DNA of 64,000 bases, taken from NCBI GenBank assembly GCA_964365185.1, contig CAYIOP010000001.1, positions 34,675 through 98,674 on the forward strand. The letters run 5' to 3'. Below, piece after piece: positions 5,200 through 50,766 of this stretch (positions are counted from its first letter, which is position 1; every line of letters begins with the position of its first letter). The position numbers and the translations under genes are program-made. The stretch is from an uncultured Candidatus Saccharibacteria bacterium (GTDB taxonomy: Bacteria > Patescibacteriota > Minisyncoccia > UBA6257 > 2-01-FULL-56-20). The notes under the pieces are model-generated. The model was not told the DNA's origin, did no database searches, and worked only from the letters and a program-made list of their open reading frames with translations.

Positions 5200-5216
5200 G
5201 CCAATTAATTTTATTT

Positions 5217-18759: not shown

Positions 18760-20007
18760 TTAATCGTCTAATTTAAAGAGAGTGTCGTTGTTTTTCTTGA
18801 TTTCAGATTTCAAAATCTCAATGGCCTTATCAAATTGAGGGTCTTTATCTTTATCGATGTCGTCATCGCTTAATTTGATTTCGTAGTCCGGAGTTAGGCC
18901 TTTGCCTTCGATGATTCCACCTTTAGGTAAAACCCAGTTGGCAACCGTGATTTTAATGGAAGAGCCGTCTTTTAGGGTTTCGATTTGTTGGACTGTGCCT
19001 TTGCCAAAAGTTGTTTCTCCTATAAGCTTGATTCCTCGGTGATCTCTTAGAGCTCCGGCTAAAATTTCCGAAGCCGAAGCCGAACCGCTATTAACCAAAA
19101 TGACTACCGGGAAATCTTTTAAAGAAGCGTTGCCGCTTGAGAACAATTTTTGCTCTTCTGATTTTTTAGAAACTTCTTTAACAACAAGGGTGCCGCGAGG
19201 CAAAAACCAGCCGGCAATATCAACTGCGACCTGGAGATAGCCGCCGGGATCGTTTCTTAAATCAAGTACTATGCCTTTGCTACCGTTGGATAAGACCTGA
19301 ACTATGGCTTTATAGAAAAGAAGATTGGCATTGGCGTTAAAACTATCGAGGCGGATGTAGGCGATATTTCCCTCTTTCATTTCAAATTCGAGAGTTGGGA
19401 TAACTATGTTTTCTCTGACAATCGCAAAATCGCGAGGTTTTTCCCAACCGTCGCGGAAAATAGTTAAAGTGACTTTCGATCCGATTTCTCCTCGGATAAA
19501 TCCGATGGCTTCTTCAACATTTAAATTTTCGGTTGAGGAAGTGTTGATGGCTAAAATTATATCTTTGGGTTTAAGGCCGGCTTTTTCAGCTGGGCTGCCT
19601 TTGAGTGGGGAGATAACCGTGAGGTGATCGTCTCGGGTGCCGATTTCCGCTCCAATACCGCCGAAATTTCCTTGAATATCCTCTTCAAATTTTTTTCCAT
19701 CTTCGGGATTAAAAAATTCCGTGTGAGGGTCGCCTAAAGAATGAACCAATCCTGCGATAGCGCCATAGACCCGTTTTTGATTGTCAATTTTTTCCGCATT
19801 TAGAAATTGCTCGTCGATAACGCTCCAGGCCTGCCAAAATGCGCTGAAGTCAACATCTTTTTGATTTTTTGATTCAGTACCGGAGAGGTTTTTGATAACG
19901 ATATTTTTGGGAATGTTGCGGCCGAAATCGATGCCCAAAGAAAAAACACTGGCTAAAAGCCCCAAAATCACGGCAATAAAAATGATTCTTCGGAAGTTAG
20001 TTTTCAC
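18760..20007 (-). CDS. ctpA: S41-family C-terminal processing peptidase with PDZ domain
   Basis: N-terminal TM segment, a PDZ-like region, then NSGSASASEILAGAL and ETTFGKGTVQ, the S41 catalytic Ser/Lys region. Confidence 0.8.
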   Translation of the reverse strand: MKTNFRRIIFIAVILGLLASVFSLGIDFGRNIPKNIVIKNLSGTESKNQKDVDFSAFWQAWSVIDEQFLNAEKIDNQKRVYGAIAGLVHSLGDPHTEFFNPEDGKKFEEDIQGNFGGIGAEIGTRDDHLTVISPLKGSPAEKAGLKPKDIILAINTSSTENLNVEEAIGFIRGEIGSKVTLTIFRDGWEKPRDFAIVRENIVIPTLEFEMKEGNIAYIRLDSFNANANLLFYKAIVQVLSNGSKGIVLDLRNDPGGYLQVAVDIAGWFLPRGTLVVKEVSKKSEEQKLFSSGNASLKDFPVVILVNSGSASASEILAGALRDHRGIKLIGETTFGKGTVQQIETLKDGSSIKITVANWVLPKGGIIEGKGLTPDYEIKLSDDDIDKDKDPQFDKAIEILKSEIKKNNDTLFKLDD

Positions 20008-24207: not shown

Positions 24208-24316
24208 TTTATTTTTTCCGAAATAAATTTGAGAGGTGATTTTTAAGTAGGGTCCAAAAAGCCCCTACGATAAGCTTAATAGTTCTAATGCGTATTTTGA
24301 TACTTGGATTCATGGA

Positions 24317-26107: not shown

Positions 26108-26130
26108 AGATGATTTTTGTTTTTTTGATA

Positions 26131-26162
26131 CTATTCTCTAATTCGCGCGAATTAGAGAATAG
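26131..26162. repeat. 32-nt perfect palindrome between array members 2 and 3
   Basis: ctattctctaattcgc|gcgaattagagaatag, read directly. It is preceded on the + strand by a T-run. Confidence 0.5.
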
Positions 26163-26181
26163 TTGGATAGAAGCGCCTTAA

Positions 26182-27834
26182 TTATGATATTTCGGCTTGA
26201 TAACATTCAACGCAGGAAATTTTTTGAAAAGTAAGTTTGGGTGAATAGTAATGTTCAATCTCTTTTTGGCAATAGACACATTTTCCTTTTTGCGGCTCCA
26301 TCATTAGAGTTAAGGGGTGAAAGCGGTTTAGGGTTCGCCAGTCAAAATGTTGTCTTGGTAGAGGGATTTCATGCTCGCGGTAAAACTGAAGTTCTGACGG
26401 GGCAATATTATAGCTTAATTTGGTTTCTGGACAGATGATGCGTTGTTTAGTAATGTCGTCTTTAACATTATCTATTTTATCCGGTAGGTCTTCCGACCTA
26501 ACTCCAACGTATTCCGGATTTTTAGGTTCTTCCCATTTAGCTCCGAATTTTAAAGCGCCCTCTTTTGTTTCGGGAAACATAATTTGAGCGAGAGAATAGT
26601 TGTATCCAGCATAGGCGGCGCTAAGTGGAAAAAATTTTCCCCACTCCCCTCTTTGCTTCATATCTGTTTCTATCTTTTTCTTTAGCGTTTCGTATTCTTG
26701 TTGGCTATATTGTTTGTTTAAAATGCAATATTTTTTCTTTCTTAATCCCACGCAGCCAAAACAATATTCGCACTCTTCGCAGTTATCCAGATAAGCGCTG
26801 TAGCGACAATAGCCGGTATAGAGATTACAGAAATTTTCATATCCCCATTGGTCCAGGGAACTCCGGGCGCATTTTTCCGATGGGCAGCCCACCGCATCAA
26901 TGAGGTCTTTACCGTCTATTCCCCTTAAAGAATAGCGGCAATTTTCCGATCTTTCCAAAAAATAACAGCTATGGCAGTTTTTGTTTTCCAATAAAAAGTT
27001 GCCGCTGGAATTTGAAATTTGGACATTAAAATGCGCGCGGTGAATCGTGTCTTTTTGAAGATGGCTCCAAAATTCTTTTTTTAGTTTTTCGACAGCGGAA
27101 TAAGAATTGAGTTCAAAACTTTTTATTTTTTTAAAATATTCTTCTTTTGAATAAGGTTGGTTTAAAATATAATATTGTTTATTTCTCAAATTCCAGGACA
27201 TAAAACAGTTTTGACAGTTGCGGCAGTCATAGAGAAAAGCGCCTTCTATACAGTCACGTGAGTTGAAGCAGTGTCGCAGTTTGAATCCCTTAAAACAATA
27301 GAGGCAGTCATAACATTTTTCTAGTTCAAAACAATAAGTTATATCCAGAGAATTTTTCGAGGCGAAAGCCCTGTAGCCATAACTGATATCCTCGATTTTC
27401 CAAGCTGACCTGGTGAGGTAGCAATTTTTTGATTCCCAAACATCGTCGGTCCAGTCACAATTGGTGTTTCTAAGACCGGTTTGATGAGGATGAGGAACTT
27501 TGGCTTGAAGTTCCATTAATTGTTCAATAAAAGGCCGGGAGGCGTCATAATCGCGGCCGTAGGCTAAAGAATCCCAGGCGTCTGAGACAAATTCTTCCCG
27601 TTCGTAGATTGGAAAAGGCACGCTCTCGGGTAAGACGGTAATGAGCCGTTTACCGCTTAGGGCGGAATTGGTGATTCGAAAGCGGCCAAAAATCCAAAAG
27701 GACAAAAGATATTTCCATCGACAGAGTGGGCATTGGTCTGGCGTCGGCAAATCGAATCTACTATAGAATTCTTTGTCGATATCTTCTATTTGAAATTCTT
27801 TTTGGCAGTTTCGGCACGTTTTGTTTTCAGTCAT
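26182..27834 (-). CDS. Cys-rich zinc-ribbon family protein (tandem array member 3)
   Basis: Start placed at M13 (MTENKTCRNCQKEFQIEDIDKEFYSRFDLPTPDQCPLCR) to avoid a 34-nt overlap with the upstream gene. Internal CQNCFMSWNLRNKQYYILNQPYSKEEY and CEYCFGCVGLRKKKYCILNKQYSQQEY, and a C-terminal ISCVECYQAEIS. Confidence 0.55.
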   Translation of the reverse strand: MTENKTCRNCQKEFQIEDIDKEFYSRFDLPTPDQCPLCRWKYLLSFWIFGRFRITNSALSGKRLITVLPESVPFPIYEREEFVSDAWDSLAYGRDYDASRPFIEQLMELQAKVPHPHQTGLRNTNCDWTDDVWESKNCYLTRSAWKIEDISYGYRAFASKNSLDITYCFELEKCYDCLYCFKGFKLRHCFNSRDCIEGAFLYDCRNCQNCFMSWNLRNKQYYILNQPYSKEEYFKKIKSFELNSYSAVEKLKKEFWSHLQKDTIHRAHFNVQISNSSGNFLLENKNCHSCYFLERSENCRYSLRGIDGKDLIDAVGCPSEKCARSSLDQWGYENFCNLYTGYCRYSAYLDNCEECEYCFGCVGLRKKKYCILNKQYSQQEYETLKKKIETDMKQRGEWGKFFPLSAAYAGYNYSLAQIMFPETKEGALKFGAKWEEPKNPEYVGVRSEDLPDKIDNVKDDITKQRIICPETKLSYNIAPSELQFYREHEIPLPRQHFDWRTLNRFHPLTLMMEPQKGKCVYCQKEIEHYYSPKLTFQKISCVECYQAEIS

Positions 27835-27836
27835 AT

Positions 27837-29504
27837 TTAGATAACTTTTTGTTGGTAGCAACTTTCGCAAAAAATAATTTCGGGTTGGTCAGGAGCGAAA
27901 TTTGTTTTAATTGGTTTTTGACAGTTCGCGCAATTGCGATCAAATATTTTAATTGGTCCTCTTCTATTTATCCTAGCTTGGTGGCGACAGTAAAAGCAAT
28001 GCCGCGGGAGAGGTATGGACATGAGTTTATAAAACTGGAATTCAGCTTGAATGATTTTGTAGTTTCGTTTACAAGAAACGCAGGCGAGAATTTCGTCTAT
28101 AATTTTTTCTGAAATTTCGCTAATATCATCTGGAATCTTTTCTGATTTCAGAGTTTCTTTTCCGGTTGTTATTTGAAGATTATCTTCCCAGCGATAACCT
28201 TGGGCAAGGGCTTCGTCTTTAGTGAGCGGCAAGTTGTCTTGCGCAATAGTTTCGTTATAGGCGAAGAGATTAAGAGCTGGTGGGAAGAAGAGTCCATAAT
28301 CCCCCGCCTGAATAAGTTCCTGCTTGATTGTGTTCGTAATTTGCCGATATTCTTTTTCGTCGTAGCGTTTATTTAGAATTGAAAATTTGGAGTTTTTTAT
28401 GCCATCGCAACCGAAACATTCTTGGCTATTACGCGTGGCGAAGCAATAAGCGACATCTTGAGCGTTTTCCACCCACCAAGAGCTGATGACTCTGGCGCTA
28501 TAACCAGTGGCAACTGCTTCCAACAACAATTCGGAGTTGCGGCCATGGCCGATAATGTCGTAGGTGTCTTTTGCTAATTTAACCGAGAAAGAGTAGTTGA
28601 CGTTTTCACAAAAGGCTAATTCAAATGAGGAGCGACAATTTTTTGATTCAAAAATGTAGTCGCCGGTTACAGCCACACTTTTTAGATTGTTGTTTTCGCG
28701 GCGTGGGAATTTAAGAGAAAATTCATCAAAGTTTTTCGCGAATTCTTTTATGGCGCTATAGCTGCCGATAATTGGTTCGACTTTCTTTTTCCACTCTTCT
28801 TTAGAGAGCGGTTCATTTAGAAAATGGTATTTTTTATGGCGAAGATTAACACAACCGAAGCAATTTTGAAGACCGACGCAATTTAAGAGAAATGAGGAAT
28901 CGAGGCATTCGGAAACATTTTGAGACCAAGAGACGCCTTTGCTGTTGTGAATATTTACTCCTTCGTAAATGTTTTCTGATTTATCAATATTGTAGCCGTC
29001 AAAGACATTGCGGCACTGGAGCATTCCGCGAGAATAGGCGCAGTTTTCATTATTGGGTCCGGAGTTGGCGACGAGATAGCAGTCCTTGTTGCCGCCAGCA
29101 AAGTTTTCATACGGACTGTTTACGCTTTTCATTACGTCGCTGCGGTAAAGTGCACATTTAGGAACTGAATGGGTTAATTCTTTGAATTGATCGAAAAAAG
29201 GCCGATTTGAATTATAAACTCGGCCGTAAGAAAAAGAATCCCATTTATCGCTATGCCAGCAATCGGGACAATATACCGTGAAAGTTGAGGAAGGGCTATA
29301 CATTGAAATAATCGGCTCATGGCAGAGATCACAGGAACGATTATATAAAACAAATTCGTTTCGAAATTGGGCCTTTCTTTTAAAGCGGCATTCAGGACAT
29401 AAAATAGGCGCCGGAACGCCCATTTTTTTATAGAAAGTGAAGTCGTCGGGTTCGATGGTGAACCCATTTTTGCAATTCTGACAAATTCTTGAATCTTGGA
29501 TCAT
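27837..29504 (-). CDS. Cys-rich zinc-ribbon family protein (tandem array member 4)
   Basis: MIQDSRICQNCKNGFTIEPDDFTFYKKMGVPAPILCPECRFKRK at the N-terminus. Internal NCFGCVNLRHKKYHFLNEPLSKEEW, and a C-terminal CFYCRHQ...IIFCESCYQQKVI. Confidence 0.6.
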   Translation of the reverse strand: MIQDSRICQNCKNGFTIEPDDFTFYKKMGVPAPILCPECRFKRKAQFRNEFVLYNRSCDLCHEPIISMYSPSSTFTVYCPDCWHSDKWDSFSYGRVYNSNRPFFDQFKELTHSVPKCALYRSDVMKSVNSPYENFAGGNKDCYLVANSGPNNENCAYSRGMLQCRNVFDGYNIDKSENIYEGVNIHNSKGVSWSQNVSECLDSSFLLNCVGLQNCFGCVNLRHKKYHFLNEPLSKEEWKKKVEPIIGSYSAIKEFAKNFDEFSLKFPRRENNNLKSVAVTGDYIFESKNCRSSFELAFCENVNYSFSVKLAKDTYDIIGHGRNSELLLEAVATGYSARVISSWWVENAQDVAYCFATRNSQECFGCDGIKNSKFSILNKRYDEKEYRQITNTIKQELIQAGDYGLFFPPALNLFAYNETIAQDNLPLTKDEALAQGYRWEDNLQITTGKETLKSEKIPDDISEISEKIIDEILACVSCKRNYKIIQAEFQFYKLMSIPLPRHCFYCRHQARINRRGPIKIFDRNCANCQKPIKTNFAPDQPEIIFCESCYQQKVI

Positions 29505-29520: not shown

Positions 29521-29790
29521 TTAAAGGATTTGATAGAGGGTTTCTATGTTATCGGTTCGTGCATCGATGTAAAACTTTCCAAATTCCTGTCTTAGAACCA
29601 GTAAGGAATATCTTTGTTCGTTCCACTTTGGATCTTCGAGCGCGAAATCCAAAAGTTCAATCCCCCGTTCAAGGGCCTCCTTAAATAATTTATCGTTTTC
29701 TGTTTGCCAAGTTTTGGCTCGCATAATTTCAGAACCAATCATAAGGAGTTGCTGGCTCTTGGAAAAAATATTCCATCTCTTTTGGGTCAT
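29521..29790 (-). CDS. hypothetical small protein
   Basis: 89-aa ORF tightly packed between the Cys-rich array and the DUF87 ATPase. No motif recognised. Confidence 0.3.
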   Translation of the reverse strand: MTQKRWNIFSKSQQLLMIGSEIMRAKTWQTENDKLFKEALERGIELLDFALEDPKWNEQRYSLLVLRQEFGKFYIDARTDNIETLYQIL

Positions 29791-30093
29791 TTAAAAAAGC
29801 AAATTTTCAACTACTTTTTTAACCTTTTCTTTGATAGCGGAGTCCTGAATTTCCATTGAGCGATTACCAATAGTCGGGCGAATATTAATCATTGAAACGT
29901 AATCAATGCGCTTTTCGAGTGGATAGATGTTTGAGCCCCATAGATTTTTGAAATTTGAGCCATCAGCTTGAAGTTCCTCGGCGCAGTCAATATGGAGTTC
30001 GCAGTTCATACTTAAAATTCTTTTTTCAATATCAACCACCACTTTTATAAATGAGATGTCTTTTGGTAAAATGGTTTTTTCGCGGACAATCAT
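29791..30093 (-). CDS. hypothetical small protein (start trimmed to M28 to avoid overlap with ATPase)
   Basis: The ORF track gives 29791..30174. The first 27 codons overlap the ATPase C-terminus, and the internal Met at 30093 abuts the ATPase stop at 30098. Confidence 0.3.
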   Translation of the reverse strand: MIVREKTILPKDISFIKVVVDIEKRILSMNCELHIDCAEELQADGSNFKNLWGSNIYPLEKRIDYVSMINIRPTIGNRSMEIQDSAIKEKVKKVVENLLF

Positions 30094-30097
30094 GATT

Positions 30098-31564
30098 TTA
30101 AATAAGTGGTTCAGGTTCTTTGGTGGCTGGAGGATTTGGTTCTTCGGAGTCAGCGGTTCGGGGCTTACCTTCAATAATGGCTTTTTCCTGAGCGCTTCTA
30201 AAAATCGTGGCTTCTTCTTCAGTAATTAGTTTTTTAGCGGCGCCAGCTGGGATAGTGTATTTAGTCCTCGATAATTCCGTAATTTTTTCTTTAAATGTTT
30301 CATGAGTGGGAGGCAAAACCTTTAACGTTTCGGCCGAGAAAGGATCATAGGTTTCACCGTCAATGGTCATTTTGATATAGAATTCCTGCATACCAAGATT
30401 AATCATATCTTTGACTTTAAAAACCGGATCCATTTCGGGTTCGAGTTTGACTGCGTCTTCGCCGCCGACGCGGAAAATAATGATAGTGCCGGTATTGCCT
30501 AAAACAGCTGCCTGAACTCGGGGAATTAACTGAGCGGCGTATTGATGGGCGACAGTAAGGCATAAACCATATTTGCGGGCTTCAGAGAGAATGTTTTCAA
30601 AGGTTTCAGTGACTAAGTTATGAAACTCGTCAACGTAAAGATAGAAATCCGTTCGGGATTCTTCGGGCATGCCAGCTCGGGCCATTCCAGCTTGCTTGAT
30701 TTTAGTAATAAACATCGCACCCAAAAAACTTGAGTTTTCTTCGCCTAGTCGTCCTTTACAGAGATTAATAAAGAGAATTTTCTTTTTTCTCATTACTTCT
30801 TCTATATCAATTTTATTTTCTTTTTGACCAAAGATGTTTCGTAGTAATGGGTCGGAGAGAAATTGGCCAAGTTTATTTACTAGTGGAATAATAGCGTCGG
30901 TGTCGAATTTTTCCGACCAATCGGCGAATTCAATGGCCCAAAAACGTTTAACCATATCGTCTTCAATATATTCCACCACTTTCTGACGATAGTTGCGGTC
31001 GGTAAGCATTGAAATCATGCCGCGCATGGTGGCGTGAGGATAGTCGAGAAGAGCCAGACAAGTGAATCTGAAAACGTGTTCTAATCGCGGAGTCCAGTTG
31101 GCGCCAAATTGCTTTTCCATGACTTCAATTAAACCTTGAGTGAGTTGATGTTTGAAGGCCGGATCAACATTGGCTAAGGGATTAAATGAAACTGGATTAT
31201 CCAAATCGGTTGGGTCGATAATAACCACATCTTCAATTCTTTCCTTTGGGATGAATTTCAGGATTTCTTCGATTACATCTCCGTGCGGGTCCATAAGACA
31301 GAGGCCGTGGCCATACGCAACATCTTGTCGAATTAATAATTCCAAAAGTTTGGATTTGCCGACACCGCTTTTGCCGATAATATACATATGTCGGCGACGG
31401 TCTTTTCTTTTGATGCCAAAAATAAATTCCTTTTTTTCAAGCGCGGCCACATAGTTAGTGCGACCGATGAAGGAAATTTCCTTCGGGTCAATACGACCGT
31501 AGATTGGAAGCTCCGGTGGAGGCGGAGCGTATTTGATAATTTGAATTTTTCCGGCTTTACTCAT
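30098..31564 (-). CDS. DUF87-type P-loop NTPase (HerA/TraD/VirD4-like), paralog 2
   Basis: [40 protein letters not shown] and AHQ. The N-terminal 250 aa are about 45% identical to the ATPase at 1102..2922. It has no zinc-ribbon tail. Confidence 0.7.
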   Translation of the reverse strand: MSKAGKIQIIKYAPPPPELPIYGRIDPKEISFIGRTNYVAALEKKEFIFGIKRKDRRRHMYIIGKSGVGKSKLLELLIRQDVAYGHGLCLMDPHGDVIEEILKFIPKERIEDVVIIDPTDLDNPVSFNPLANVDPAFKHQLTQGLIEVMEKQFGANWTPRLEHVFRFTCLALLDYPHATMRGMISMLTDRNYRQKVVEYIEDDMVKRFWAIEFADWSEKFDTDAIIPLVNKLGQFLSDPLLRNIFGQKENKIDIEEVMRKKKILFINLCKGRLGEENSSFLGAMFITKIKQAGMARAGMPEESRTDFYLYVDEFHNLVTETFENILSEARKYGLCLTVAHQYAAQLIPRVQAAVLGNTGTIIIFRVGGEDAVKLEPEMDPVFKVKDMINLGMQEFYIKMTIDGETYDPFSAETLKVLPPTHETFKEKITELSRTKYTIPAGAAKKLITEEEATIFRSAQEKAIIEGKPRTADSEEPNPPATKEPEPLI

Positions 31565-31566
31565 AT

Positions 31567-32154
31567 TTATAAGTCGGCAGGGTTTATTAATTCTAGCTCT
31601 TTTAAAATAACTTCAAAATTATGAATGGTTTTTTTAACATCACTTGAGTCGATTTCAAAATTGGGATCGTCGACTATTCTATTGTGATATTCGTGGGCTT
31701 TCATGCCGGCGCGCCTGATCCAACCCAGTTCCTCGGACATAATTTGATTGATTTTATCGCCGGTGTTCTCGCCGCTAAAGCCAACGTTAGTTAGGGCTTG
31801 GCCCACAAATTTATCAGCTTCGATGATGGCCAATTTCATCTGATCTAGATTGCCTGAAAAAGCTTTTTCTCGAATTGAGCACCAGAAATTTAGCGCGGCT
31901 TTTTTTTCAGGAGTAAGTGGAGCAGGGGGTCGTTTTTTGATATTGATATGGGGCCTGAACATTCTGGCTTTATTTAAGAGAAATAAAAAGGTGACAAAGA
32001 GGCCAATGTCAACAGCAATCCAAAGAATTTTGAAATCAAAAGCTGGTTTTCTTGGCCAAGTAGAGAGGTTTAGATAAATGGGCCAAGCTAAGAGAGAAAG
32101 GCCGATAATAAAAACTAGACCGTGCAGAAATTTTAAAAGCTTTTCGAAATTCAT
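31567..32154 (-). CDS. hypothetical membrane protein (2 TM) adjacent to ATPase
   Basis: 195 aa with two N-terminal hydrophobic helices, then a soluble domain. Its stop is 3 nt before the ATPase start. Confidence 0.4.
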   Translation of the reverse strand: MNFEKLLKFLHGLVFIIGLSLLAWPIYLNLSTWPRKPAFDFKILWIAVDIGLFVTFLFLLNKARMFRPHINIKKRPPAPLTPEKKAALNFWCSIREKAFSGNLDQMKLAIIEADKFVGQALTNVGFSGENTGDKINQIMSEELGWIRRAGMKAHEYHNRIVDDPNFEIDSSDVKKTIHNFEVILKELELINPADL

Positions 32155-32166
32155 AAATAATTTGAA

Positions 32167-33552
32167 TTATAAGAATTTTTCGATATTTTCTTCTTCGCCG
32201 AAAATAGCGAGTCCTGCTGGCGGACCGGCTTTTCGGCTCTCTACTCGTTTAATATGTGGCGCTGTGATGACAAAAGATTGAGGCGGATGAAAGAGGGTGG
32301 CTAGCGCCTCGATATTTAAAGTGATTTTCTTGGAGGCAAAATTAAAGTTTAAGGGATGGGCGGATAATAGTTTTGCCCAAAAAGTTTTTTGAGGTTGTTT
32401 CCAGTGTCTGTAATTATAGAGCAGGCGTTGTTTACGATAGCGATTTCTGACTTTATGAAAAAGAAACGGCCAGTTCCAGAAAGTGAGCCGAGTGGAAACC
32501 TTGGCATTTTGACGGAAAGAATTGAGGTCTAAGCTGCTGTATTGATTAAAAGAACCAACAATGCCGCGGCGCGCAAAACTGTCATAAAACATTAGCTTGG
32601 GTGAGAAGTAGATGAATCGAATGGTAGTTTTGAAAGCGGACTTTGAAGTATATTGCTCAACAGCTTTTAGAATGTCGGTTTCGCCGGGCGATCGGGTAAG
32701 TGATTTGGCGAATAATTCTAGTTCGTTGGATTTAGGCGTTTCAGTGGTGAAAGTCGGCAAGGGTCCGCCGCCGGGAAATTCCGCTTTATTGGCTGATTTT
32801 AAATTGGCAATGGCATCGCGTTTGTTTTGGGACTCTTTTAATTCAGAGATTAAATGATTCCAATGGTCTTTCCAGTCTGGCGTGGCGGCTTCAATTAGAA
32901 ATTGAATACCGACCATTTCTTGTTTTTTAACTTTTCCAAAGACCTCTAAAAAGGCGGAAATTGGGTCGTATTCTTTTTCTTCTTCCATGGATTCAAAATG
33001 CGGGTAGGTTTTAATTGGGTAGGCCTCTTCCCTGTTTAGAATCATTTCACTACCCCAAAGCTCATAGTTTTTGTCTAGCATATCTTCAATATTTTCAGGA
33101 AATCGGTTTAAATAATCATCAACTTCGGCTAGTTCAAGGTCTGGGTAGTAGGCGTAAAAAGCGGCTTCAACTAAACTTCGATATTTATAATAGAGCCGGA
33201 TATAAAGATGAATTTCACCGCCAAAACTGGCCATTTCCAGCGAAAACCAGCGAGTGACTTCGCCGTCTCGATAATACTCCTGCAGGTCATAAGGAGCGTT
33301 TCTTAGTCCGTGAAGGGCGGCTAAAATTTGTTCCATAGCTTGCGGATTTTTTTTGGTTTCTCGAGGAATCACGATTTCTAGAAGTATCCATTTGAGGTAT
33401 TTTTTGTAACTTTCATGTCGCCAAAAAAGTAGCGTCTTTTCGGCGATGTTAAATAAAATAACCGCTAACACAAATAAACCGACCAGCGTGGCAATTTCTT
33501 GAAACAACGGCGAAGAAAAATTTGTAAGTTCAGCCGTTAAGTCCGCTCCCAT
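32167..33552 (-). CDS. hypothetical membrane-anchored protein (461 aa)
   Basis: Two N-terminal TM helices, then a large soluble region rich in aromatic residues. No recognised catalytic motif. Co-directional with the ATPase module. Confidence 0.35.
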   Translation of the reverse strand: MGADLTAELTNFSSPLFQEIATLVGLFVLAVILFNIAEKTLLFWRHESYKKYLKWILLEIVIPRETKKNPQAMEQILAALHGLRNAPYDLQEYYRDGEVTRWFSLEMASFGGEIHLYIRLYYKYRSLVEAAFYAYYPDLELAEVDDYLNRFPENIEDMLDKNYELWGSEMILNREEAYPIKTYPHFESMEEEKEYDPISAFLEVFGKVKKQEMVGIQFLIEAATPDWKDHWNHLISELKESQNKRDAIANLKSANKAEFPGGGPLPTFTTETPKSNELELFAKSLTRSPGETDILKAVEQYTSKSAFKTTIRFIYFSPKLMFYDSFARRGIVGSFNQYSSLDLNSFRQNAKVSTRLTFWNWPFLFHKVRNRYRKQRLLYNYRHWKQPQKTFWAKLLSAHPLNFNFASKKITLNIEALATLFHPPQSFVITAPHIKRVESRKAGPPAGLAIFGEEENIEKFL

Positions 33553-33599: not shown

Positions 33600-34628
33600 T
33601 TAGTCCTGTCGAATTCGGTAGGCGCCGTTTTCGAGTCGTTCAAAAAACTTACGATTTTGAAGATTAACAAGAATTGTGTTGGGCTTGACGATTTTTTCTT
33701 TGGCAATAGCCAAGGAAATTTCTTTAGTTTTCATTGGGCCGCTTTGCTGTAAAATTCTTTGAATCACCTCTTGAACTGTTCCTGGACGATAGCCTTGTTC
33801 GCTTAGTCCATAGATGCCTCGGCCGACCAAAACAAAACGTTGGTCTTTAATGAGCTCGTTATGAACCGTTGGCGAAAGCGCGGTTCGGCTATCAAATTTA
33901 ATCTTGTTGATTTCGGCGGCAATTTCATTGAAGTGCAAGGGTTTCCCTATTTTTTTTAGAACTAGATAAATTTTATCCTTAATGTTAACCGGTTTGATTT
34001 CAGGCCACTCAAGCAACCCAACATCACCTAAGGGGTTAGTGTGAATTTTTTTAGAAACCGCAATATAATTTTTTGCGTAGTTTTCGTTCAATTTCTGCTC
34101 TTTAATGAATTCTTTCTGAAATTGAGTGTAGTTGCCAGCTAAAACCGGATCTTTATTGGAGCGCATAAATTTTACTAATTGCGCTGTCATTTTTTGAAGC
34201 TCGACTAATTTTTCTTTATTAGAATAATAAAAAGACCAGAAATTTTTATCTTCGGGGTAGAAATTAAAAGCTCGGGTAGTATCTAAAAGCAAGGCCAGAT
34301 GATTGCGGTTAATGTCCGGAAAATTTTGATTGAGTTCGCCAATCATGCCCATTTCTTTAACTACTCCGCCTGCGGCCTGAAGATGTTTTTGGGCTTTAGC
34401 TAAAATAGCTTGGCATTCTGGATTGGATTTGATTTTTTCCTTAAGAATACCCAGCCCAACGTTTTCGATTTGCCGAATCCTCTCGCGCGTAAGATCGTAT
34501 TTTTTGCCAATGGCGGCTAGGGTTTGAGGTTTTTGGTTTTCAATGCCAAAGCGGCCCACGATGATTTCCTTTTGGCGAGGGTTTAGATGTTCCAGTAACG
34601 GATCAATGGCTTTTCTGATTTTTGTCAT
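33600..34628 (-). CDS. DNA-binding protein with sigma70 region-4-like HTH at N-terminus
   Basis: LNPRQKEIIVGRFGIENQKPQTLAAIGKKYDLTRERIRQIENVGLGILK resembles the sigma-70 region 4 helix-turn-helix. The C-terminal 250 aa are unassigned. Confidence 0.4.
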   Translation of the reverse strand: MTKIRKAIDPLLEHLNPRQKEIIVGRFGIENQKPQTLAAIGKKYDLTRERIRQIENVGLGILKEKIKSNPECQAILAKAQKHLQAAGGVVKEMGMIGELNQNFPDINRNHLALLLDTTRAFNFYPEDKNFWSFYYSNKEKLVELQKMTAQLVKFMRSNKDPVLAGNYTQFQKEFIKEQKLNENYAKNYIAVSKKIHTNPLGDVGLLEWPEIKPVNIKDKIYLVLKKIGKPLHFNEIAAEINKIKFDSRTALSPTVHNELIKDQRFVLVGRGIYGLSEQGYRPGTVQEVIQRILQQSGPMKTKEISLAIAKEKIVKPNTILVNLQNRKFFERLENGAYRIRQD

Positions 34629-34715
34629 AGTTTAGAATTCATTATATCATATAGAATTTATTAGTCAACTGTGGACAAGTCCCTCGCTTTTTAGTCAAAG
34701 AATGAGGGATGAAGA

Positions 34716-35630
34716 TCAGGGATTAGCTTTCGACTTTTGGGTGAAGTTGTGCCAAATATATAGAAGCGGGCTGGCGACAAAGATTGAAGAATAAACTCCG
34801 GTTGAGACGCCGACTAGAAGAGTCAGAATAAAATATTTGAGGGTAATGGGGCCGGCTATATAAAGCGCGAGTAAAACTAAGATTAGAGTTAAAGAAGTAT
34901 TGATTGATCGGGCGATGGTTTGATTGATACTCTTACCGATAATTTCTTTAAATTCTACTTTGCCGTGTGAGATGCTAAGATTTTCTCGAATGCGGTCGAA
35001 AACAACAATGGTGTCATGGACCGAGAAGCCCATAATCACCAAAAGGGCTACAATAAAATTGCCGTCGATTTCAACTCCGGCGGTTTTGCCGAGGATGGCA
35101 ATTAACCCGGCGGGGAGGGCGATGTCATGAAATAAAGTGACCATGGTTACAGCGCCGTATTTCCAGGAGCTAATGGGTTTAGAAACTTTTCTGAAGGCAA
35201 ATGAAATATAGAGCGAGACAATAATCAGCGATAGAATAATCGCGGTAATTGAATTCTTCCTTAGTTTTTGTCCGATGGATGGACCAATGGATTGAAAACT
35301 TAATTCTTCAAAAGAAGGATATTTTTGAATAAGGGATGATTGAATTTGTTGGTGGTCATTTTCGGTTAGGGGTTGGGTGCGTAGAATAAAATTTTTGGAG
35401 GTTAAACTGTAATTTAAGTGGAACTCCCCTACTTCTTCAAATTTTGCTTGGAAAAAGGTTTGCAGTTCTTCTGAGGTGGGAGCTTGTTCTTTAATTTCAA
35501 ATTGCCAGAGTGTGCCGCCTTTGAAATCTACAGATTCTTTGAGGCCGAAAAAAATAATACTTAAAATCGCCGCTAGGATTAAGAGGGATGAAATTACTAA
35601 ATATATTTTTCGGTGATTGATGATGTTCAT
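34716..35630 (-). CDS. secF: Protein translocase subunit SecF
   Basis: Start set at MNIINHRKIY (35630). The ORF-track extension to 35903 only reads through the heptad repeat and overlaps secD. Six TM helices with the SecD/F periplasmic and TM layout. Confidence 0.75.
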   Translation of the reverse strand: MNIINHRKIYLVISSLLILAAILSIIFFGLKESVDFKGGTLWQFEIKEQAPTSEELQTFFQAKFEEVGEFHLNYSLTSKNFILRTQPLTENDHQQIQSSLIQKYPSFEELSFQSIGPSIGQKLRKNSITAIILSLIIVSLYISFAFRKVSKPISSWKYGAVTMVTLFHDIALPAGLIAILGKTAGVEIDGNFIVALLVIMGFSVHDTIVVFDRIRENLSISHGKVEFKEIIGKSINQTIARSINTSLTLILVLLALYIAGPITLKYFILTLLVGVSTGVYSSIFVASPLLYIWHNFTQKSKANP

Positions 35631-35636
35631 GGAGAT

Positions 35637-35667
35637 TAGGTGATAGGTTTTAGGTTTTAGGTGGCAG
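35637..35667. repeat. heptad-periodic (T)AGG repeat between secD and secF
   Basis: tagg tgatagg ttttagg ttttagg tggcagg, with TAG at 35637, 35644, 35651 and 35658. Confidence 0.5.
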
Positions 35668-36913
35668 GTGTTTGGGGTTTTGGGGCTGCCTGTTTTTTGG
35701 CTAGCACTTTTAAAAGCAGGCGGGTGGTGGTGATGGCAGAGAACATACTGATTAAAACTCCAATTAGAAGGGTGATAGCAAAGCCGCGAATAAAGCTTGA
35801 GGTTAAGAAATAAAGAATTAAAGCGGTGATGATGGTGGAGATATTTGAGTCGCGGATTGAAGGCCATGCGCGCCTGAAACCTTCTTCCATGGCGTTTATC
35901 CAAGAGAGACCCCTTTTAGTTTCTTCTTTAATGCGTTCAAAAATAAGAATATTGGCGTCGACGGCCATGCCGATGGTGAGGATAAAACCAGCCAATCCCG
36001 CGAGGGTCATGGTAATAGAGAAAAGTTTGAAAACGCCTAAAGTTAAGGCGATATATATAAGTAGGGCTAGGACGGCGAAAATACCAAGATAGCGATAATA
36101 GAGAACCATAAAAATCATCACCAAAAGCGCTCCAATTAATCCGGCAACTAGGGCTCGATGAAGTGAGTCCGCGCCAAGTGTGGGACTGATAGTTTGTTGA
36201 TTGATTAAGGTGATAGGCGCGGGCAGAGCGCCGGCATTAAATCGTTCGACTAACTGTTTAGCTTCGGCAAGAGTAAATTTTCCGCTAATCACGGCTTTAC
36301 CGCCAGTAATTTTTTCTTGAACCACGGGCGCCTCAATTAAAACATTGTCTAGAAAAATAGCGATGGGTTTGCCGATATTAGCTTCGGTTAATCTTTCAAA
36401 AATTCCTCCGCCTTCTTCGTTAAATTCAATCGCGACTTCGGGTTGGCCGGTGGTGGGATCAAAATTTAGTTGGGCGCTTTTAACGTAGCGGCCGTTTAGA
36501 TTAGTCATAATAAAACTAGTGGTGCTGGCGTTTTGTTCCACTTCGCGGAAATCAAGAAAGGGGGTGGTGCCGATTTGAGCAATGGCCTCGTTGATATTTT
36601 TAACACCAGCCAGCTCGACAATTAAATTATTACTGTCAGCTGTTTTAGATATAAAAACCTGGGGTTCACTCACGCCAAAGAGGTTAACTCGGCGCTCAAT
36701 AACGTCTCTTAAGCCGTTTAGAACCGAATCTTGGTCTGAAGTAGGGACTTGGGAGAGATCAATTTGATAAATTAAGTAGCTGCCACCAACTAAATCTAGC
36801 CCAAGGCGCCAGGGTTGTTTTTTAAGGCCAAAACCAGCCGGGTAAATAAAAACCGCGGCGAGGATGGTGATAATGATGATTAAAAATAAAAAGAGACCGG
36901 GGTGATGTTTCAT
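35657..36913 (-). CDS. secD: Protein translocase subunit SecD
   Basis: N-terminal TM helix, a periplasmic domain, then a C-terminal 5-TM bundle (LAGLAGFILTIGMAVDANILIFERIKEE is the SecD/F signature). Confidence 0.8.
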   Translation of the reverse strand: MKHHPGLFLFLIIIITILAAVFIYPAGFGLKKQPWRLGLDLVGGSYLIYQIDLSQVPTSDQDSVLNGLRDVIERRVNLFGVSEPQVFISKTADSNNLIVELAGVKNINEAIAQIGTTPFLDFREVEQNASTTSFIMTNLNGRYVKSAQLNFDPTTGQPEVAIEFNEEGGGIFERLTEANIGKPIAIFLDNVLIEAPVVQEKITGGKAVISGKFTLAEAKQLVERFNAGALPAPITLINQQTISPTLGADSLHRALVAGLIGALLVMIFMVLYYRYLGIFAVLALLIYIALTLGVFKLFSITMTLAGLAGFILTIGMAVDANILIFERIKEETKRGLSWINAMEEGFRRAWPSIRDSNISTIITALILYFLTSSFIRGFAITLLIGVLISMFSAITTTRLLLKVLAKKQAAPKPQTPAT

Positions 36914-37207
36914 TGAGATTAGGTTTAAGGTGGCAGGTTATGGGTGATAGGTTGCTACGAAAGTTGGAATTTATTAACGATACGATTATAAAGGAAGGCG
37001 CTTAAATTGTAAACTCCTCTGAATAAGAGTTTTGTGAGTAATTTTTTTCTAGAGAGAAAGGTCTAAGTTAGAAAATTATTTATAAAACTTGATCGTTTTA
37101 TTTTTCGAATAGTGCCATTTTTATTTGAGTGGAATGAAATAAAAAAACGGGATGTAAATTTCTTTACATCCCGCAATATAATGAATGTGGTTTGTCGTCC
37201 GTGGGCG

Positions 37208-44816: not shown

Positions 44817-44850
44817 CCGGCTCCGAGACAATGTCTTGGAGCCGCTTTTT
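44817..44850 (+). terminator. Rho-independent terminator of island operon
   Basis: ccggctccgagac-aat-gtcttggagccg followed by cttttt. The T-run overlaps the stop of the convergent GH130 gene. Confidence 0.45.
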
Positions 44851-50761: not shown

Positions 50762-50766
50762 GGTCT

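What the first reader, a model, noticed from the sequence alone, without database searches (positions are those of the whole stretch)
29521..33552. DUF87 ATPase plus membrane proteins adjacent to the Cys-rich array: candidate ATPase-driven system
Directly downstream of the four-gene array, on the same strand, lie two small ORFs, a DUF87/HerA/TraD-like P-loop ATPase (30098..31564), a 2-TM protein with a 3-nt gap, and a 461-aa membrane-anchored protein. Family knowledge: DUF87 ATPases drive substrate translocation in conjugation/type IV systems (TraD/VirD4/TrsE) and DNA end processing (HerA). Inference: the ATPase plus membrane partners may export, translocate or remodel the Cys-rich proteins, or a nucleic acid bound by their zinc ribbons. 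No other T4SS core component (VirB4/B6/B8-like) is recognisable here.
Basis: partly seen in the sequence, partly recalled or inferred. Interest (0 to 1): 0.8.

Follow-up and report, generated by a model that had tools for sequence, protein, structure and literature searches.

The report
Split type-IV coupling ATPase module
This stretch of an ultra-small groundwater bacterium (Candidate Phyla Radiation, CPR) encodes a conjugation-type "coupling" ATPase split into a membrane-anchored front half and a soluble motor, kept on the chromosome across much of this radiation and here co-transcribed with zinc-ribbon proteins; its job is unknown.

Summary
The genes are real, but they lie on the minus strand, so the ATPase block is upstream of the Cys-rich array, not downstream.

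- **ATPase (30098..31564):** a VirD4/TrwB-type coupling-protein (T4CP) motor with no membrane segment. It is not HerA.
- **461-aa protein (DUF8128):** one membrane helix plus a domain whose predicted fold matches only the N-terminal domain of VirB4.
- **Fusion evidence:** in Bacillus conjugative-type plasmids, DUF8128-like and ATPase-like parts form one 833–913-aa protein next to a relaxase-type gene. The pair is therefore a split monoderm-type T4CP.
- **195-aa protein:** a membrane-anchored HEPN-like domain, with its catalytic motif lost in this genome.
- **Linkage in 80 related species genomes:** DUF8128 adjacent in 68/75, the HEPN protein in 69/77, Cys-rich paralogs on the same strand downstream in 44/50.
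- **More distant CPR lineages:** the core is sigma-r4/HARE-HTH protein, then DUF8128, then a second ATPase type. The window also holds that paralog (1102..2922), fused to the zinc finger found in the Cys-rich proteins.

No relaxase, full VirB4, VirB6 or VirB8 lies in the window. The function (client delivery to a T4SS, DNA handling or export) is inferred, not shown. This is a new variant of a known kind.

The parts
33600..34628 (-). 342-aa protein with sigma-70 region 4 and a HARE-HTH domain ('SigHARE'). It is the conserved gene immediately upstream of the module and a possible DNA-binding or regulatory partner.
   Evidence: Pfam Sigma70_r4 8.9e-13 and HARE-HTH 1.4e-9. PDB matches cover sigma region 4 only. 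It lies adjacent upstream of DUF8128 in 59/70 close loci and 57/60 distant loci.
34641..34668 (-). Promoter-like site (TTGACT, 16 nt spacer, TG, TATAAT; 11/12 match) just upstream of SigHARE. It is the likely start of the SigHARE-to-Cys-array transcription unit.
   Evidence: Consensus scan. No strong terminator-like site was found on the minus strand between 34.6 and 22.5 kb. This is a consensus match only.
32167..33552 (-). 461-aa DUF8128 (PF26449) protein. It has one N-terminal TM helix, a VirB4-N-terminal-domain-like fold, and a conserved but disordered C-terminal tail. It is the detached N-terminal module of the coupling protein.
   Evidence: - The identical public protein carries PF26449.
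- AF2 model: pLDDT 80.5.
- hhalign to the N-terminal part of fused Bacillus plasmid T4CPs gives 94.6-95.4% probability.
- No Walker motifs. One TM segment at 16-34.
31567..32154 (-). 195-aa membrane protein with 1-2 TM helices and a ~105-aa all-alpha HEPN-like domain. The Rx4H motif is degenerate in this genome.
   Evidence: Hydropathy. Family alignment A2 shows AHRxRNxLVH, but the window copy reads AHEYHNRIVDD. Pfam HEPN_Swt1 hits 8/26 members, best 8.2e-5. It is adjacent to the ATPase in 69/77 loci.
30098..31564 (-). 488-aa soluble VirD4/TrwB-type coupling-protein ATPase ('ATPase1'). Walker A is GKSGVGKS at 64-71 and Walker B is YLYVDE at 308-313.
   Evidence: Pfam and NCBIfam hits. Profile against PDB: TrwB 2.6e-7, DotL 2.2e-5. 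hhalign to residues 304-719 of the pBM69 T4CP gives 99.9%, E 4e-34. Motifs. It is 76-91% identical across 80 species genomes.
29791..30093 (-). 100-aa DUF5674 protein. It is a lineage-specific insertion and not part of the conserved module.
   Evidence: Pfam DUF5674 1.8e-25. Start at ATG 30093. Found at this position only in L004 and L020.
29521..29790 (-). 89-aa protein of unknown function, paired with DUF5674 (stop and start codons abut). It is a lineage-specific insertion.
   Evidence: The same pair is found elsewhere in L125.
22501..29504 (-). Four Cys-rich paralogs (555, 550-562, 596 and 568 aa). Each has four Zn-ribbon/treble-clef modules and two beta-solenoid-like modules. They are likely clients or adaptors of ATPase1.
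1102..2922 (+). 606-aa second coupling-protein ATPase paralog ('ATPase2'). It carries a C-terminal CxxC-x17-CxxC Zn finger and represents the ancestral partner type of DUF8128.
   Evidence: It is 44% identical to ATPase1 over 416 aa. Pfam zf_Tbcl_2 5.8e-12. The Zn finger matches the Cys555 C-terminal finger at E 1e-5. It is directly adjacent to DUF8128 in 56/63 distant loci and lies next to the Cys array in 20/80 close loci.
13175..14977 (+). Fifth Cys-rich paralog (600 aa), separate from the array.
   Evidence: Pfam zf_Tbcl_2 1.7e-4. It aligns with the other four in A3.

Best explanation
**Shown.** The 461-aa DUF8128 protein and the 488-aa ATPase are together a type-IV coupling protein (T4CP) of the monoderm conjugation type, split into two genes. 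DUF8128 supplies the membrane anchor and a VirB4-NTD-like N-terminal domain. The ATPase supplies the VirD4/TrwB-like P-loop motor. The pair sits on the chromosome among housekeeping genes, with no relaxase or mating-pore genes beside it. It is conserved across Patescibacteria, preceded by a sigma-r4/HARE-HTH protein.

In this Paceibacteria-type lineage the motor is duplicated:
- The ancestral copy (ATPase2, 1102..2922) carries a C-terminal CxxC-x17-CxxC Zn finger.
- The copy in this finding (ATPase1) lacks that finger. It is co-transcribed with a membrane HEPN-like protein and with 1-6 conserved paralogs that carry the same Zn finger.

**Inferred.** ATPase1 forms a hexamer docked at the membrane through DUF8128, probably via DUF8128's invariant but disordered C-terminal tail, with help from the HEPN-like membrane protein. 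It uses ATP to recruit and feed a macromolecular client into a membrane conduit, as T4CPs do. The most likely conduit is the Patescibacteria T4SS encoded elsewhere in the genome. The Zn-ribbon/beta-solenoid paralogs would be its dedicated client-binding adaptors, supplying in trans the finger that ATPase2 has in cis. Less likely, they are the cargo itself. Whether the translocated molecule is protein, DNA or a nucleoprotein is not resolved.
For: **T4CP identity of the ATPase**
- Pfam TrwB_AAD_bind 1.8e-11, T4SS-DNA_transf and TraG-D_C. NCBIfam TraD and VirD4-like CD1115, about 1e-15.
- Family profile against PDB: TrwB 2.6e-7, DotL 2.2e-5, HerA 5e-4.
- Walker A and B are intact.

**DUF8128 as the N-terminal module**
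- AF2 model has pLDDT 80.5.
- No other P-loop ATPase appears among the hits and the protein has no Walker motif, so the match is to the VirB4-specific N-terminal domain.

**Fusion (Rosetta stone)**
- The pBM69 833-aa protein matches the DUF8128 profile at residues 54-175 (94.6%, E 6.7e-8). It matches the ATPase profile at residues 304-719 (99.9%, E 4e-34).
- In 15 of 18 Bacillales plasmids this N-terminal region lies inside the 'DUF87' gene.
- These genes sit next to replication-relaxation, conjugal-transfer and TcpD genes.

**Linkage**
- DUF8128 is adjacent in 68/75 loci, the HEPN protein in 69/77, and the Cys-rich family downstream on the same strand in 44/50.
- Intergenic gaps are 2-16 nt in the window, and the median DUF8128-to-HEPN gap is 4 nt.
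- In distant lineages DUF8128 is followed by an ATPase2-type gene in 56/63 loci and preceded by SigHARE in 57/60.

**Zn-finger link**
- ATPase2 carries zf_Tbcl_2 (5.8e-12). That finger aligns with the Cys555 C-terminal finger at E 1e-5.
- ATPase2 flanks the Cys array in 20/80 loci.

**Strong constraint**
- Median identity across the 80 loci is 80% for ATPase1 against 62% for SecD.
- Cys555 orthologs are 55-72% identical with a constant length.

**Literature**
- T4CP homologues occur in 2,918 of 3,035 Patescibacteria genomes, 5,713 copies in all, and only 148 lie near virB4. VirB4-type T4SS genes occur in 2,417 genomes. The authors raised exaptation as a possibility (PMC12102498).
Against: - No experiment bears on function.
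- No channel component (VirB6, VirB8 or a full VirB4) lies in the window or in the 160 related loci. Coupling to a T4SS encoded elsewhere is therefore an assumption.
- In Southlakia epibionticum the T4SS genes are essential but the t4cp homologue is not (PMC12102498). That argues against an obligatory T4SS-T4CP partnership, unless paralogs are redundant.
- The DUF8128-VirB4 relation rests on predicted structure only. No sequence-level match was found.
- The HEPN call is weak, and the motif is lost in the window copy.
- The Cys-rich proteins show no recognisable secretion signal or nucleic-acid enzyme fold.
- Gene order in these lineages also keeps SecDF next to the block. Part of the linkage could therefore be inherited synteny rather than function.
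Confidence: 0.4

Rival explanations
1. The module is an exapted, T4SS-independent DNA motor. The split T4CP, especially the Zn-finger-bearing ATPase2 but also ATPase1 with Zn-ribbon partners, would pull or process DNA at the membrane together with ComEC. It would act as a functional analogue of ComFA in natural transformation.
For: - In the window, ATPase2 is followed by TrmD, ComEC and an MBL-domain gene. The order ATPase2-TrmD-ComEC recurs in 6 close loci, and ComEC lies a few kb downstream in 7 distant loci.
- T4CPs are DNA-dependent translocases (family knowledge).
- The conserved CPR com gene set is reported as ComEC, DprA and ComFC, with no ComFA mentioned (PMC10633639).
- Both comEC and t4cp are non-essential in Southlakia.
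- SigHARE is a DNA-binding-type neighbour.
Against: - ComEC is within reach in only 4/40 distant loci that have at least 6 kb of room. It was found in 7/80 close loci.
- A tRNA methyltransferase gene usually lies between ATPase2 and ComEC.
- ATPase1 itself is about 25 kb from ComEC in this window.
- No DNA-binding test of the Zn fingers exists.
- comF genes are reported in some CPR classes.
Confidence: 0.2
2. One reading: a self-contained ATPase-driven exporter or assembly machine. DUF8128 and the HEPN-like membrane protein would form the membrane part, and the Cys-rich beta-solenoid paralogs would be exported to build a surface structure.
For: - ATPase1 is specifically linked to the Cys-rich family and the two were gained together: 44/50 loci, against 2/40 for ATPase2-type loci.
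- The Cys-rich proteins lack signal peptides and TM segments.
- Their central modules resemble beta-solenoids seen in curli, phage appendages, adhesin heads and antifreeze proteins.
- Arrays of paralogs recall the VirB2-like pilin arrays of CPR T4SS loci.
Against: - The two membrane proteins have only 1 and 1-2 TM helices, too few for an obvious pore.
- Four Zn-ribbon modules per protein point to a cytoplasmic, tightly folded protein.
- The paralogs are slowly evolving orthologous subfamilies of constant length, unlike typical surface or effector arrays.
- The same Zn finger is fused to the cytoplasmic ATPase2.
- There is no flexible C-terminal signal; the protein ends inside a Zn ribbon.
Confidence: 0.15
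3. A cytoplasmic remodelling machine without translocation. The ATPase hexamer would assemble, disassemble or load metal on a hetero-oligomer of the Zn-ribbon/beta-solenoid paralogs at the membrane.
For: The paralogs are conserved, with distinct orthologous subfamilies of constant length, which suggests a hetero-oligomeric complex. The operon is tightly packed.
Against: T4CP-family ATPases are known as translocation or coupling motors, not chaperones (family knowledge). Membrane anchoring through DUF8128 is conserved, and a purely cytoplasmic role would not need it.
Confidence: 0.1
4. A remnant or active part of a conjugative element, or a HerA-NurA/FtsK-type repair or segregation ATPase, or a HEPN-plus-ATPase anti-phage system.
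For: - The closest non-CPR relatives are on plasmids next to relaxase-type genes.
- There are weak HerA and mad8 P-loop matches.
- A HEPN-like domain is present.
Against: - **Mobile element:** the block sits in a housekeeping neighbourhood with flat GC content and has the same chromosomal position across 160 loci. No relaxase, integrase or mating-pore genes are present. ATPase1 is 76-91% identical across orders, which does not fit a mobile element.
- **HerA:** HerA models score far below cutoff (16 bits against 970), and no NurA-like gene is present in the window.
- **Defence:** no PADLOC system proteins match beyond P-loop similarity, and the HEPN motif is lost here.
- **FtsK:** FtsK is mentioned in papers on the Saccharibacterium TM7x (listing only; text not read).
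Confidence: 0.06

Closest known systems
Fused DUF8128-like + DUF87/T4CP proteins of Bacillales conjugative-type plasmids (pBM69 WP_003349917.1, 833 aa; B. subtilis NRS6116_2 WP_144625398.1, 913 aa) and the 812-aa Embleya plasmid T4CP WP_331738717.1
   Same: Same two modules in the same order. The N-terminal region matches the DUF8128 profile (94.6%, E 6.7e-8). The C-terminal region matches the ATPase profile (99.9%, E 4e-34). The ELAxLxHxP junction motif is shared.
   Different: - The plasmid proteins are single polypeptides, next to replication-relaxation (relaxase-type), conjugal-transfer, TcpD and VirB4-like genes.
- The window genes are split, chromosomal and without relaxase or pore genes. 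They are only 25-30% identical to these proteins.
- The window genes are joined by a HEPN-like membrane protein and Zn-ribbon paralogs.
- The Embleya match is weak (E 0.0086).
Canonical type-IV coupling proteins VirD4 / TrwB (R388) / TraD / DotL
   Same: Homologous P-loop motor domain with Walker A and B. These are the nearest solved structures by sequence.
   Different: The ATPase polypeptide has no N-terminal two-helix transmembrane domain. Scores are far below the NCBIfam equivalog cutoffs (57 bits against 366). It is not encoded with a relaxase or a T4SS.
VirB4 / TrwK, the signature T4SS ATPase
   Different: DUF8128 has no P-loop domain. No sequence-level similarity to a VirB4-like protein was found. 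The partner ATPase scores better with VirD4-type models than with VirB4-type models.
Patescibacteria chromosomal T4SS (VirB4, TrsD, VirB3, VirB6, VirB8, VirB2-like pilin arrays; Wang et al. 2023, Quinonero-Coronel et al. 2025)
   Same: Same evolutionary source, the monoderm MPF-FATA-type conjugation machinery. Both are near-universal in CPR, chromosomal and without a relaxase.
   Different: That locus is defined by virB4. Only 148 of 5,713 T4CP homologues lie near it, and the t4cp was non-essential where T4SS genes were essential. DUF8128, the HEPN-like protein and the Zn-ribbon array are not mentioned in the passages read of the three papers the literature searches returned.
T4CPs without their own membrane domain that are recruited by a separate membrane protein (e.g. 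TraJ of pIP501), recalled from memory and not checked here
   Same: A soluble coupling ATPase that depends on a separately encoded membrane partner.
   Different: The partner there is not known to me to be DUF8128-like. This is a lead only.
HerA-NurA and FtsK/SpoIIIE ATPases
   Same: Same ASCE P-loop superclass, with weak DUF87/HerA matches around the Walker motifs.
   Different: HerA models score far below cutoff. No nuclease partner is present. There are no FtsK gamma or 4-TM domains. A membrane partner with a VirB4-NTD-like fold is present instead.

Membership tests
Type-IV coupling protein (VirD4/TrwB/TraD, T4CP) | P-loop nucleotide-binding domain homologous to TrwB/VirD4, with intact Walker A and B motifs | tested here: met
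   Pfam TrwB_AAD_bind 44 bits (cutoff 20.5), T4SS-DNA_transf 30.5 (cutoff 20.1) and TraG-D_C 26.6 (cutoff 22). Profile against PDB gives TrwB 2.6e-7 and DotL 2.2e-5. Walker A is GKSGVGKS and Walker B is YLYVDE.
Type-IV coupling protein (VirD4/TrwB/TraD, T4CP) | N-terminal transmembrane domain in the same polypeptide | tested here: not met
   The 488-aa ATPase has no hydrophobic segment with KD >= 1.6. A TM helix is present in the separately encoded DUF8128 protein.
Type-IV coupling protein (VirD4/TrwB/TraD, T4CP) | Encoded with a relaxase and/or mating-pore (VirB4, VirB6, VirB8) genes | tested here: not met
   Pfam survey of 48 window ORFs (every ORF of at least 130 aa except SecD, SecF, Def, Fmt, the protease-like ORF 18760..20007 and two Cys-rich paralogs, which were identified from neighbour tables or their translations) found none. 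Clustering of neighbours in the 80 distant loci found none among the conserved ones, and the tblastn gene-order tables for the 80 close loci (window proteins as queries only) show nothing of the kind. Published figure: 148 of 5,713 CPR T4CPs lie near virB4.
Type-IV coupling protein (VirD4/TrwB/TraD, T4CP) | Scores above the curated equivalog or subfamily cutoffs of NCBIfam TraD/VirD4 models | tested here: not met
   SXT_TraD scores 57 bits against a cutoff of 366. CD1115 VirD4-like scores 57 against 250.
Monoderm plasmid T4CP with DUF8128-like N-terminal domain (pBM69 type) | N-terminal DUF8128-like region followed by the T4CP-like ATPase, collinear | tested here: met
   hhalign of A1 matches pBM69 residues 54-175 (94.6%). 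hhalign of A5 matches residues 304-719 (99.9%). In the window the two parts are separate genes in the same order, with the 195-aa gene between them.
VirB4 | VirB4-type N-terminal domain | tested here: met
VirB4 | C-terminal P-loop ATPase domain in the same protein | tested here: not met
   The 461-aa protein has no Walker A or B motif. All 150 top family representatives are 152-588 aa, most 400-550, too short to hold a fused ATPase domain.
DUF8128 (PF26449) | Match to the Pfam model | tested here: met
   The precomputed PF26449 annotation is attached to the identical public protein P0121 and to nearly all homologues (marked 'weak'). The local Pfam copy returned no hit, possibly because it lacks or under-scores this model.
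HEPN superfamily (195-aa protein) | All-alpha domain with an Rx4-6H motif and a match to HEPN models | tested here: inconclusive
   The family consensus is AHRxRNxLVH. HEPN_Swt1 hits 8/26 members (best 8.2e-5), and other HEPN models hit weakly. The window copy has no HEPN hit, and its motif reads AHEYHNRIVDD.
HerA-NurA DNA end-resection system | HerA equivalog match and an adjacent NurA nuclease | tested here: not met
   helicase_HerA scores 16 bits against a cutoff of 970. No NurA-like gene lies among the neighbours.
Known anti-phage defence systems (PADLOC) | System-specific protein models for at least two components | tested here: not met
   Only P-loop-level mad8/HerA matches for the ATPases and a sigma-r4-only MzaA match were found. 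DUF8128, the HEPN-like protein and the Cys-rich protein had none.
ComFA-like DNA-uptake motor (functional class) | Required for ComEC-dependent transformation | not testable with these tools
   Only gene-order hints are available.

The most novel reading that the evidence does not exclude
Patescibacteria have turned a conjugative coupling protein into a near-universal chromosomal membrane motor that works without a relaxase and possibly without the T4SS. It is split into a VirB4-NTD-like anchor (DUF8128) and a soluble hexameric ATPase. In Paceibacteria, a duplicated copy together with a HEPN-like membrane protein would service a dedicated set of Zn-ribbon/beta-solenoid proteins. That could amount to a previously unrecognised protein or nucleoprotein trafficking route, for example for DNA acquisition or a host-contact structure in these obligate symbionts.
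Probability: 0.3. Interest if true: 0.85.

Novelty: new variant of a known kind. Interest (0 to 1): 0.62.

Why it matters
CPR/Patescibacteria make up a large share of bacterial diversity, have tiny genomes and depend on hosts. Genes they keep almost universally are therefore strong candidates for the core of that lifestyle.

Published work counted about two orphan T4CP homologues per genome and could only say that exaptation 'cannot be ruled out'. This analysis adds three things:

- **Anatomy.** The orphan ATPase has a conserved partner (DUF8128) that is its own detached N-terminal module, with a VirB4-like fold. It also has a conserved DNA-binding-type neighbour.
- **A testable genetic unit.** The unit is SigHARE, DUF8128 and the ATPase, with the HEPN protein and the Zn-ribbon array as lineage-specific additions.
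- **A concrete physical link.** The same Zn finger occurs in cis on one paralog and in trans, on neighbouring proteins, with the other.

If the module proves to be the missing motor for DNA uptake, or a client-specific gate of the essential CPR T4SS, it would explain a highly conserved piece of 'dark matter'. ATPase1 is 80% identical across orders, more conserved than SecD.

Tried and rejected
- **Sequence-level search for solved relatives of DUF8128.** The profile against PDB gave nothing below E 0.4. hhalign against the Embleya VirB4-like protein gave nothing. Only structure comparison and plasmid T4CP N-termini gave signal.
- **HerA/NurA and FtsK readings.** Rejected on HMM scores and neighbours.
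- **Defence-system reading.** The PADLOC scan gave only P-loop and sigma-r4 similarities.
- **Mobile-element or phage reading.** GC content is flat and the genes around are housekeeping. The viral-contig scan found 7 distant ATPase homologues, none with DUF8128, SigHARE, HEPN or Cys-rich neighbours.
- **Search for further conserved partners, such as a channel.** Clustering all ORFs of the 80 distant loci recovered only SigHARE, DUF8128, the ATPase and SecD/F. After these came housekeeping genes such as EF-P, MnmA and SecA.
- **Strengthening the Embleya N-terminal match with more sequences.** Only 3 plasmid records exist, so this was left as weak evidence.
- **Literature searches.** Searches for DUF8128 and for CPR with DUF87, T4CP or VirD4 found only the two T4SS papers.
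- **Promoter and terminator scan.** Site counts do not exceed shuffled expectation. Only the two 11/12 promoter-like sites in the intergenic gaps are noted.

Full report
**Observation**

The finding covers five ORFs on the minus strand:
- 32167..33552 (461 aa)
- 31567..32154 (195 aa)
- 30098..31564 (488 aa)
- 29791..30174, which more likely starts at ATG 30093 and gives 100 aa
- 29521..29790 (89 aa)

Because they are on the minus strand, they are transcribed before the four Cys-rich genes (29504..22501), not after them. The genes are tightly packed. The gaps are 12 nt, 2 nt, 4 nt, 0 nt and 16 nt. The only near-consensus promoter-like sites on this strand lie upstream of SecD (37013..36985) and upstream of the 342-aa gene at 34628 (34668..34641). 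No strong terminator-like site follows on the minus strand down to 22.5 kb (consensus matches only).

The exact proteins occur in Hainich groundwater 0.1-µm-filter metagenome assemblies. The rest of the window is housekeeping: GltX, MurC, FtsW, MurG, L9, Def, Fmt, SecDF, DnaK/DnaJ/GrpE/HrcA, CysS, DnaB, RecR and YchF. GC content is flat at about 0.40. This is a chromosomal region of a Patescibacteria (CPR) genome, not a mobile element.

**The ATPase**

The 488-aa protein matches coupling-protein models:
- Pfam TrwB_AAD_bind (1.8e-11), T4SS-DNA_transf and TraG-D_C. The DUF87 hit covers only the P-loop.
- NCBIfam TraD and VirD4-like models at about 1e-15, all far below equivalog cutoffs. HerA scores 16 bits against a cutoff of 970.
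- A family profile finds TrwB (2.6e-7) and DotL/IcmO (2.2e-5) as the nearest solved proteins, with HerA at 5e-4.

Walker A (GKSGVGKS, 64-71) and Walker B (YLYVDE, 308-313) are intact. The protein has no hydrophobic segment.

It has thousands of relatives and is 76-91% identical in 80 species-level genomes labelled Liptonbacteria, Jorgensenbacteria, Brennerbacteria, Nomurabacteria, Gribaldobacteria and Paceibacterota. Its median identity across these is 80%. SecD in the same loci has a median of 62%. That is unusually strong constraint.

**The 461-aa protein**

The identical public protein carries Pfam DUF8128 (PF26449). The family comprises 2,429 clusters at 50% identity. The 150 best representatives are stand-alone proteins of 152-588 aa (most 400-550), too short to hold a fused ATPase domain. 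The protein has one N-terminal TM helix and no Walker motifs.

An AlphaFold2 model built on 47 sequences has pLDDT 80.5 and pTM 0.76.
- Foldseek independently gives TrwK/VirB4 chains as its ten best hits, E 5e-5 to 1e-2.
- No other P-loop ATPase appears in either list, so the similarity is to the VirB4-specific N-terminal domain.
- Sequence profiles do not detect this relation.

The last ~30 residues are invariant across the family but predicted disordered. This looks like a docking peptide, which is an inference.

**Fusion evidence**

A tblastn search of the ATPase against plasmids finds 25-39% identical proteins, several of them in conjugation-type loci:
- An Embleya linear plasmid carries PrgI, a VirB4-like ATPase, an 812-aa T4CP, a replication-relaxation protein and NlpC/P60.
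- Small Bacillus plasmids carry a 'DUF87' protein followed by a replication-relaxation protein, conjugal-transfer proteins and a VirB4-like ATPase.

The gene just upstream of the Bacillus ATPase matches the DUF8128 profile at 95.4% probability, E 1.7e-8. In 15 of 18 Bacillales plasmids that region lies inside the 'DUF87' gene itself.

The 833-aa pBM69 protein matches both profiles:
- DUF8128 at residues 54-175 (94.6%, E 6.7e-8).
- The ATPase family at residues 304-719 (99.9%, E 4e-34).
- The junction motif ELAxLxHxP is shared.

DUF8128 plus the ATPase is therefore a split version of a monoderm-type coupling protein. This is the strongest single piece of evidence that the two window genes work as one unit.

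**The 195-aa protein**

Homologues taken from the related loci have 1-2 TM helices. They also share a ~105-aa helical domain with the conserved pattern AxIEAD...GEHMADRL...AHRxRNxLVH, which contains an Rx4H motif. Pfam HEPN_Swt1 matches 8 of 26 members (best 8.2e-5), and other HEPN families match weakly. In the window copy the motif reads AHEYHNRIVDD, so both key residues are lost, and no HEPN model matches. I treat it as a membrane-anchored HEPN-like domain that is probably non-catalytic here.

**Linkage in close relatives**

In the 80 genome loci found with ATPase1:
- DUF8128 is adjacent upstream in 68/75.
- The HEPN-like gene is adjacent in 69/77.
- The sigma-r4/HARE-HTH gene is upstream in 59/70.
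- SecD is upstream in 49/60.
- Cys-rich paralogs (1-6 copies) lie downstream on the same strand within 10 kb in 44/50.

The DUF5674 and 89-aa pair occurs at this position only in L004 and L020. It is a local insertion.

**A second paralog**

The window holds another coupling-type ATPase at 1102..2922 (+). It is 44% identical to ATPase1 over 416 aa. It has a C-terminal CxxC-x17-CxxC finger (zf_Tbcl_2, 5.8e-12), followed by TrmD, ComEC and an MBL-domain gene.

That finger aligns with the C-terminal finger of the 555-aa Cys-rich protein at E 1e-5. In 20 of the 80 loci the ortholog of this paralog lies within 10 kb of ATPase1, usually just after the Cys-rich array. In six of them ComEC follows.

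A fifth Cys-rich paralog lies at 13175..14977.

**Linkage in distant relatives**

A metagenome scan seeded with distant DUF8128 members gave 80 more loci, whose DUF8128 proteins are 28-40% identical to the window protein. In those loci:
- DUF8128 is directly followed by an ATPase2-type gene in 56/63. These genes are 46-69% identical to ATPase2 and 40-50% identical to ATPase1.
- DUF8128 is preceded by the sigma-r4/HARE-HTH gene in 57/60.
- SecD is upstream in 32/40.
- The Cys-rich family is present in only 2/40.
- ComEC is present in 4/40.

Clustering all ORFs found no further conserved neighbour. After SigHARE, the ATPase and SecD/F come EF-P, MnmA, SecA and similar genes.

The old core is therefore SigHARE, DUF8128 and ATPase2. 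ATPase1, the HEPN-like protein and the Cys-rich family are a later addition in the Paceibacteria-type lineages. In this genome the ATPase2-TrmD-ComEC part has been moved about 27 kb away.

**The Cys-rich proteins**

Orthologs of the 555-aa member are 55-72% identical and almost all 552-572 aa long. Each window paralog finds its own better-matching counterpart in other genomes. They are thus old, slowly evolving subfamilies, not fast-evolving arrays.

**Literature**

Quinonero-Coronel et al. 2025 (PMC12102498) report the following:
- 5,713 VirD4-type T4CP homologues in 2,918 of 3,035 Patescibacteria genomes, with only 148 near virB4.
- VirB4 in 2,417 genomes.
- Only 109 relaxases.
- The Southlakia t4cp is non-essential, and exaptation 'cannot be ruled out'.

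Wang et al. 2023 (PMC10633639) list ComEC, DprA and ComFC as the conserved com genes and show that comEC is non-essential but needed for transformation. No paper in the searchable library mentions DUF8128. The three papers returned by the VirD4/T4CP searches do not mention this gene arrangement in the passages read.

**Interpretation**

Shown:
- A split coupling protein of the monoderm type.
- Conserved chromosomal linkage with a DNA-binding-type protein.
- In this lineage, conserved linkage with a HEPN-like membrane protein and Zn-ribbon paralogs.
- The same Zn finger fused to the paralogous ATPase.

Inferred: the ATPase forms a membrane-docked hexamer through DUF8128 and hands a client to a conduit. 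I rank delivery to the T4SS encoded elsewhere, with the Zn-ribbon proteins as adaptors, first (0.4). The rivals are:
- a T4SS-independent, ComEC-linked DNA motor (0.2);
- a non-translocating remodelling role (0.1);
- mobile-element, HerA/FtsK or defence readings (about 0.06 together).

**Verdict**

This is a real and strongly conserved module. It belongs by homology to the T4CP family, but it fails several canonical T4CP membership features: it has no TMD of its own, no relaxase or T4SS context, and scores below the equivalog cutoffs. It is best filed as a new variant of a known kind. Interest is moderate to high, because the module is near-universal in a huge, poorly understood radiation and now has a defined, testable anatomy.

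Noticed in passing
window 1102..6083 (+): A second T4CP-like ATPase (606 aa) with a C-terminal CxxC-x17-CxxC finger and a long acidic tail. It is followed by TrmD (2919..3605), ComEC (3772..5199) and an MBL-fold protein (5217..6083). The order ATPase2-TrmD-ComEC recurs in six related loci.
   Followed up: partly
window 13175..14977 (+): A fifth paralog (600 aa) of the Cys-rich Zn-ribbon family. It stands alone between an M23 peptidase gene and MurC, away from the four-gene array.
   Followed up: partly
window 29521..30093 (-); also L004, L020, L125:3991-4451: A DUF5674 (100 aa) plus 89-aa gene pair with abutting stop and start codons, inserted between the ATPase and the Cys-rich array. The same pair occurs at a different place in another CPR contig, so it behaves like a small mobile two-gene cassette. 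Its function is unknown.
   Followed up: partly
window 33600..34628 (-): A 342-aa protein combining sigma-70 region 4 (no regions 2 or 3) with a HARE-HTH domain. It also has a weak C-terminal hit to DUF2161 (putative PD-(D/E)XK, 20.8 bits, below cutoff). It is the most constant neighbour of DUF8128 across CPR (57/60 distant loci). Its role, whether regulator, RNAP accessory or DNA-processing partner, is open.
   Followed up: partly
window 32167..32260 (-), residues ~431-461 of the 461-aa protein: The C-terminal tail of DUF8128 is among the most conserved parts of the family (APHIxRVESRKxGPPAGLAIFGEE) yet is predicted disordered (pLDDT < 50). The N-terminus of ATPase1 has a similar proline-rich stretch (YAPPPPELP) that aligns with the domain junction of the fused pBM69 protein.
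   Followed up: no
window 31567..32154 (-), motif near residue 154: The HEPN-like Rx4H motif, conserved in most homologues (AHRxRNxLVH), has lost both the Arg and the His in this genome. It has lost the His in its closest relative L003.
   Followed up: partly
window 44849..51816 (-): Three GH130 (mannoside phosphorylase-type) paralogs, a GDE_C/GH100-like protein and a 737-aa GT4 glycosyltransferase are clustered together. This is a carbohydrate-processing island unusual for a reduced genome.
   Followed up: no
window 34716..35903 (-): The longest SecF ORF (395 aa, TTG start) overlaps SecD by about 250 nt and begins with a low-complexity His/Pro-rich stretch. The public gene call is 304 aa, so the long N-terminal extension is probably not translated.
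   Followed up: no
L103:743-3478 and ten other distant loci: In 11 of the distant loci SecA lies a few genes upstream of SecDF, SigHARE, DUF8128 and the ATPase. In some CPR lineages the split coupling protein therefore sits inside a larger block of protein-export genes.
   Followed up: no
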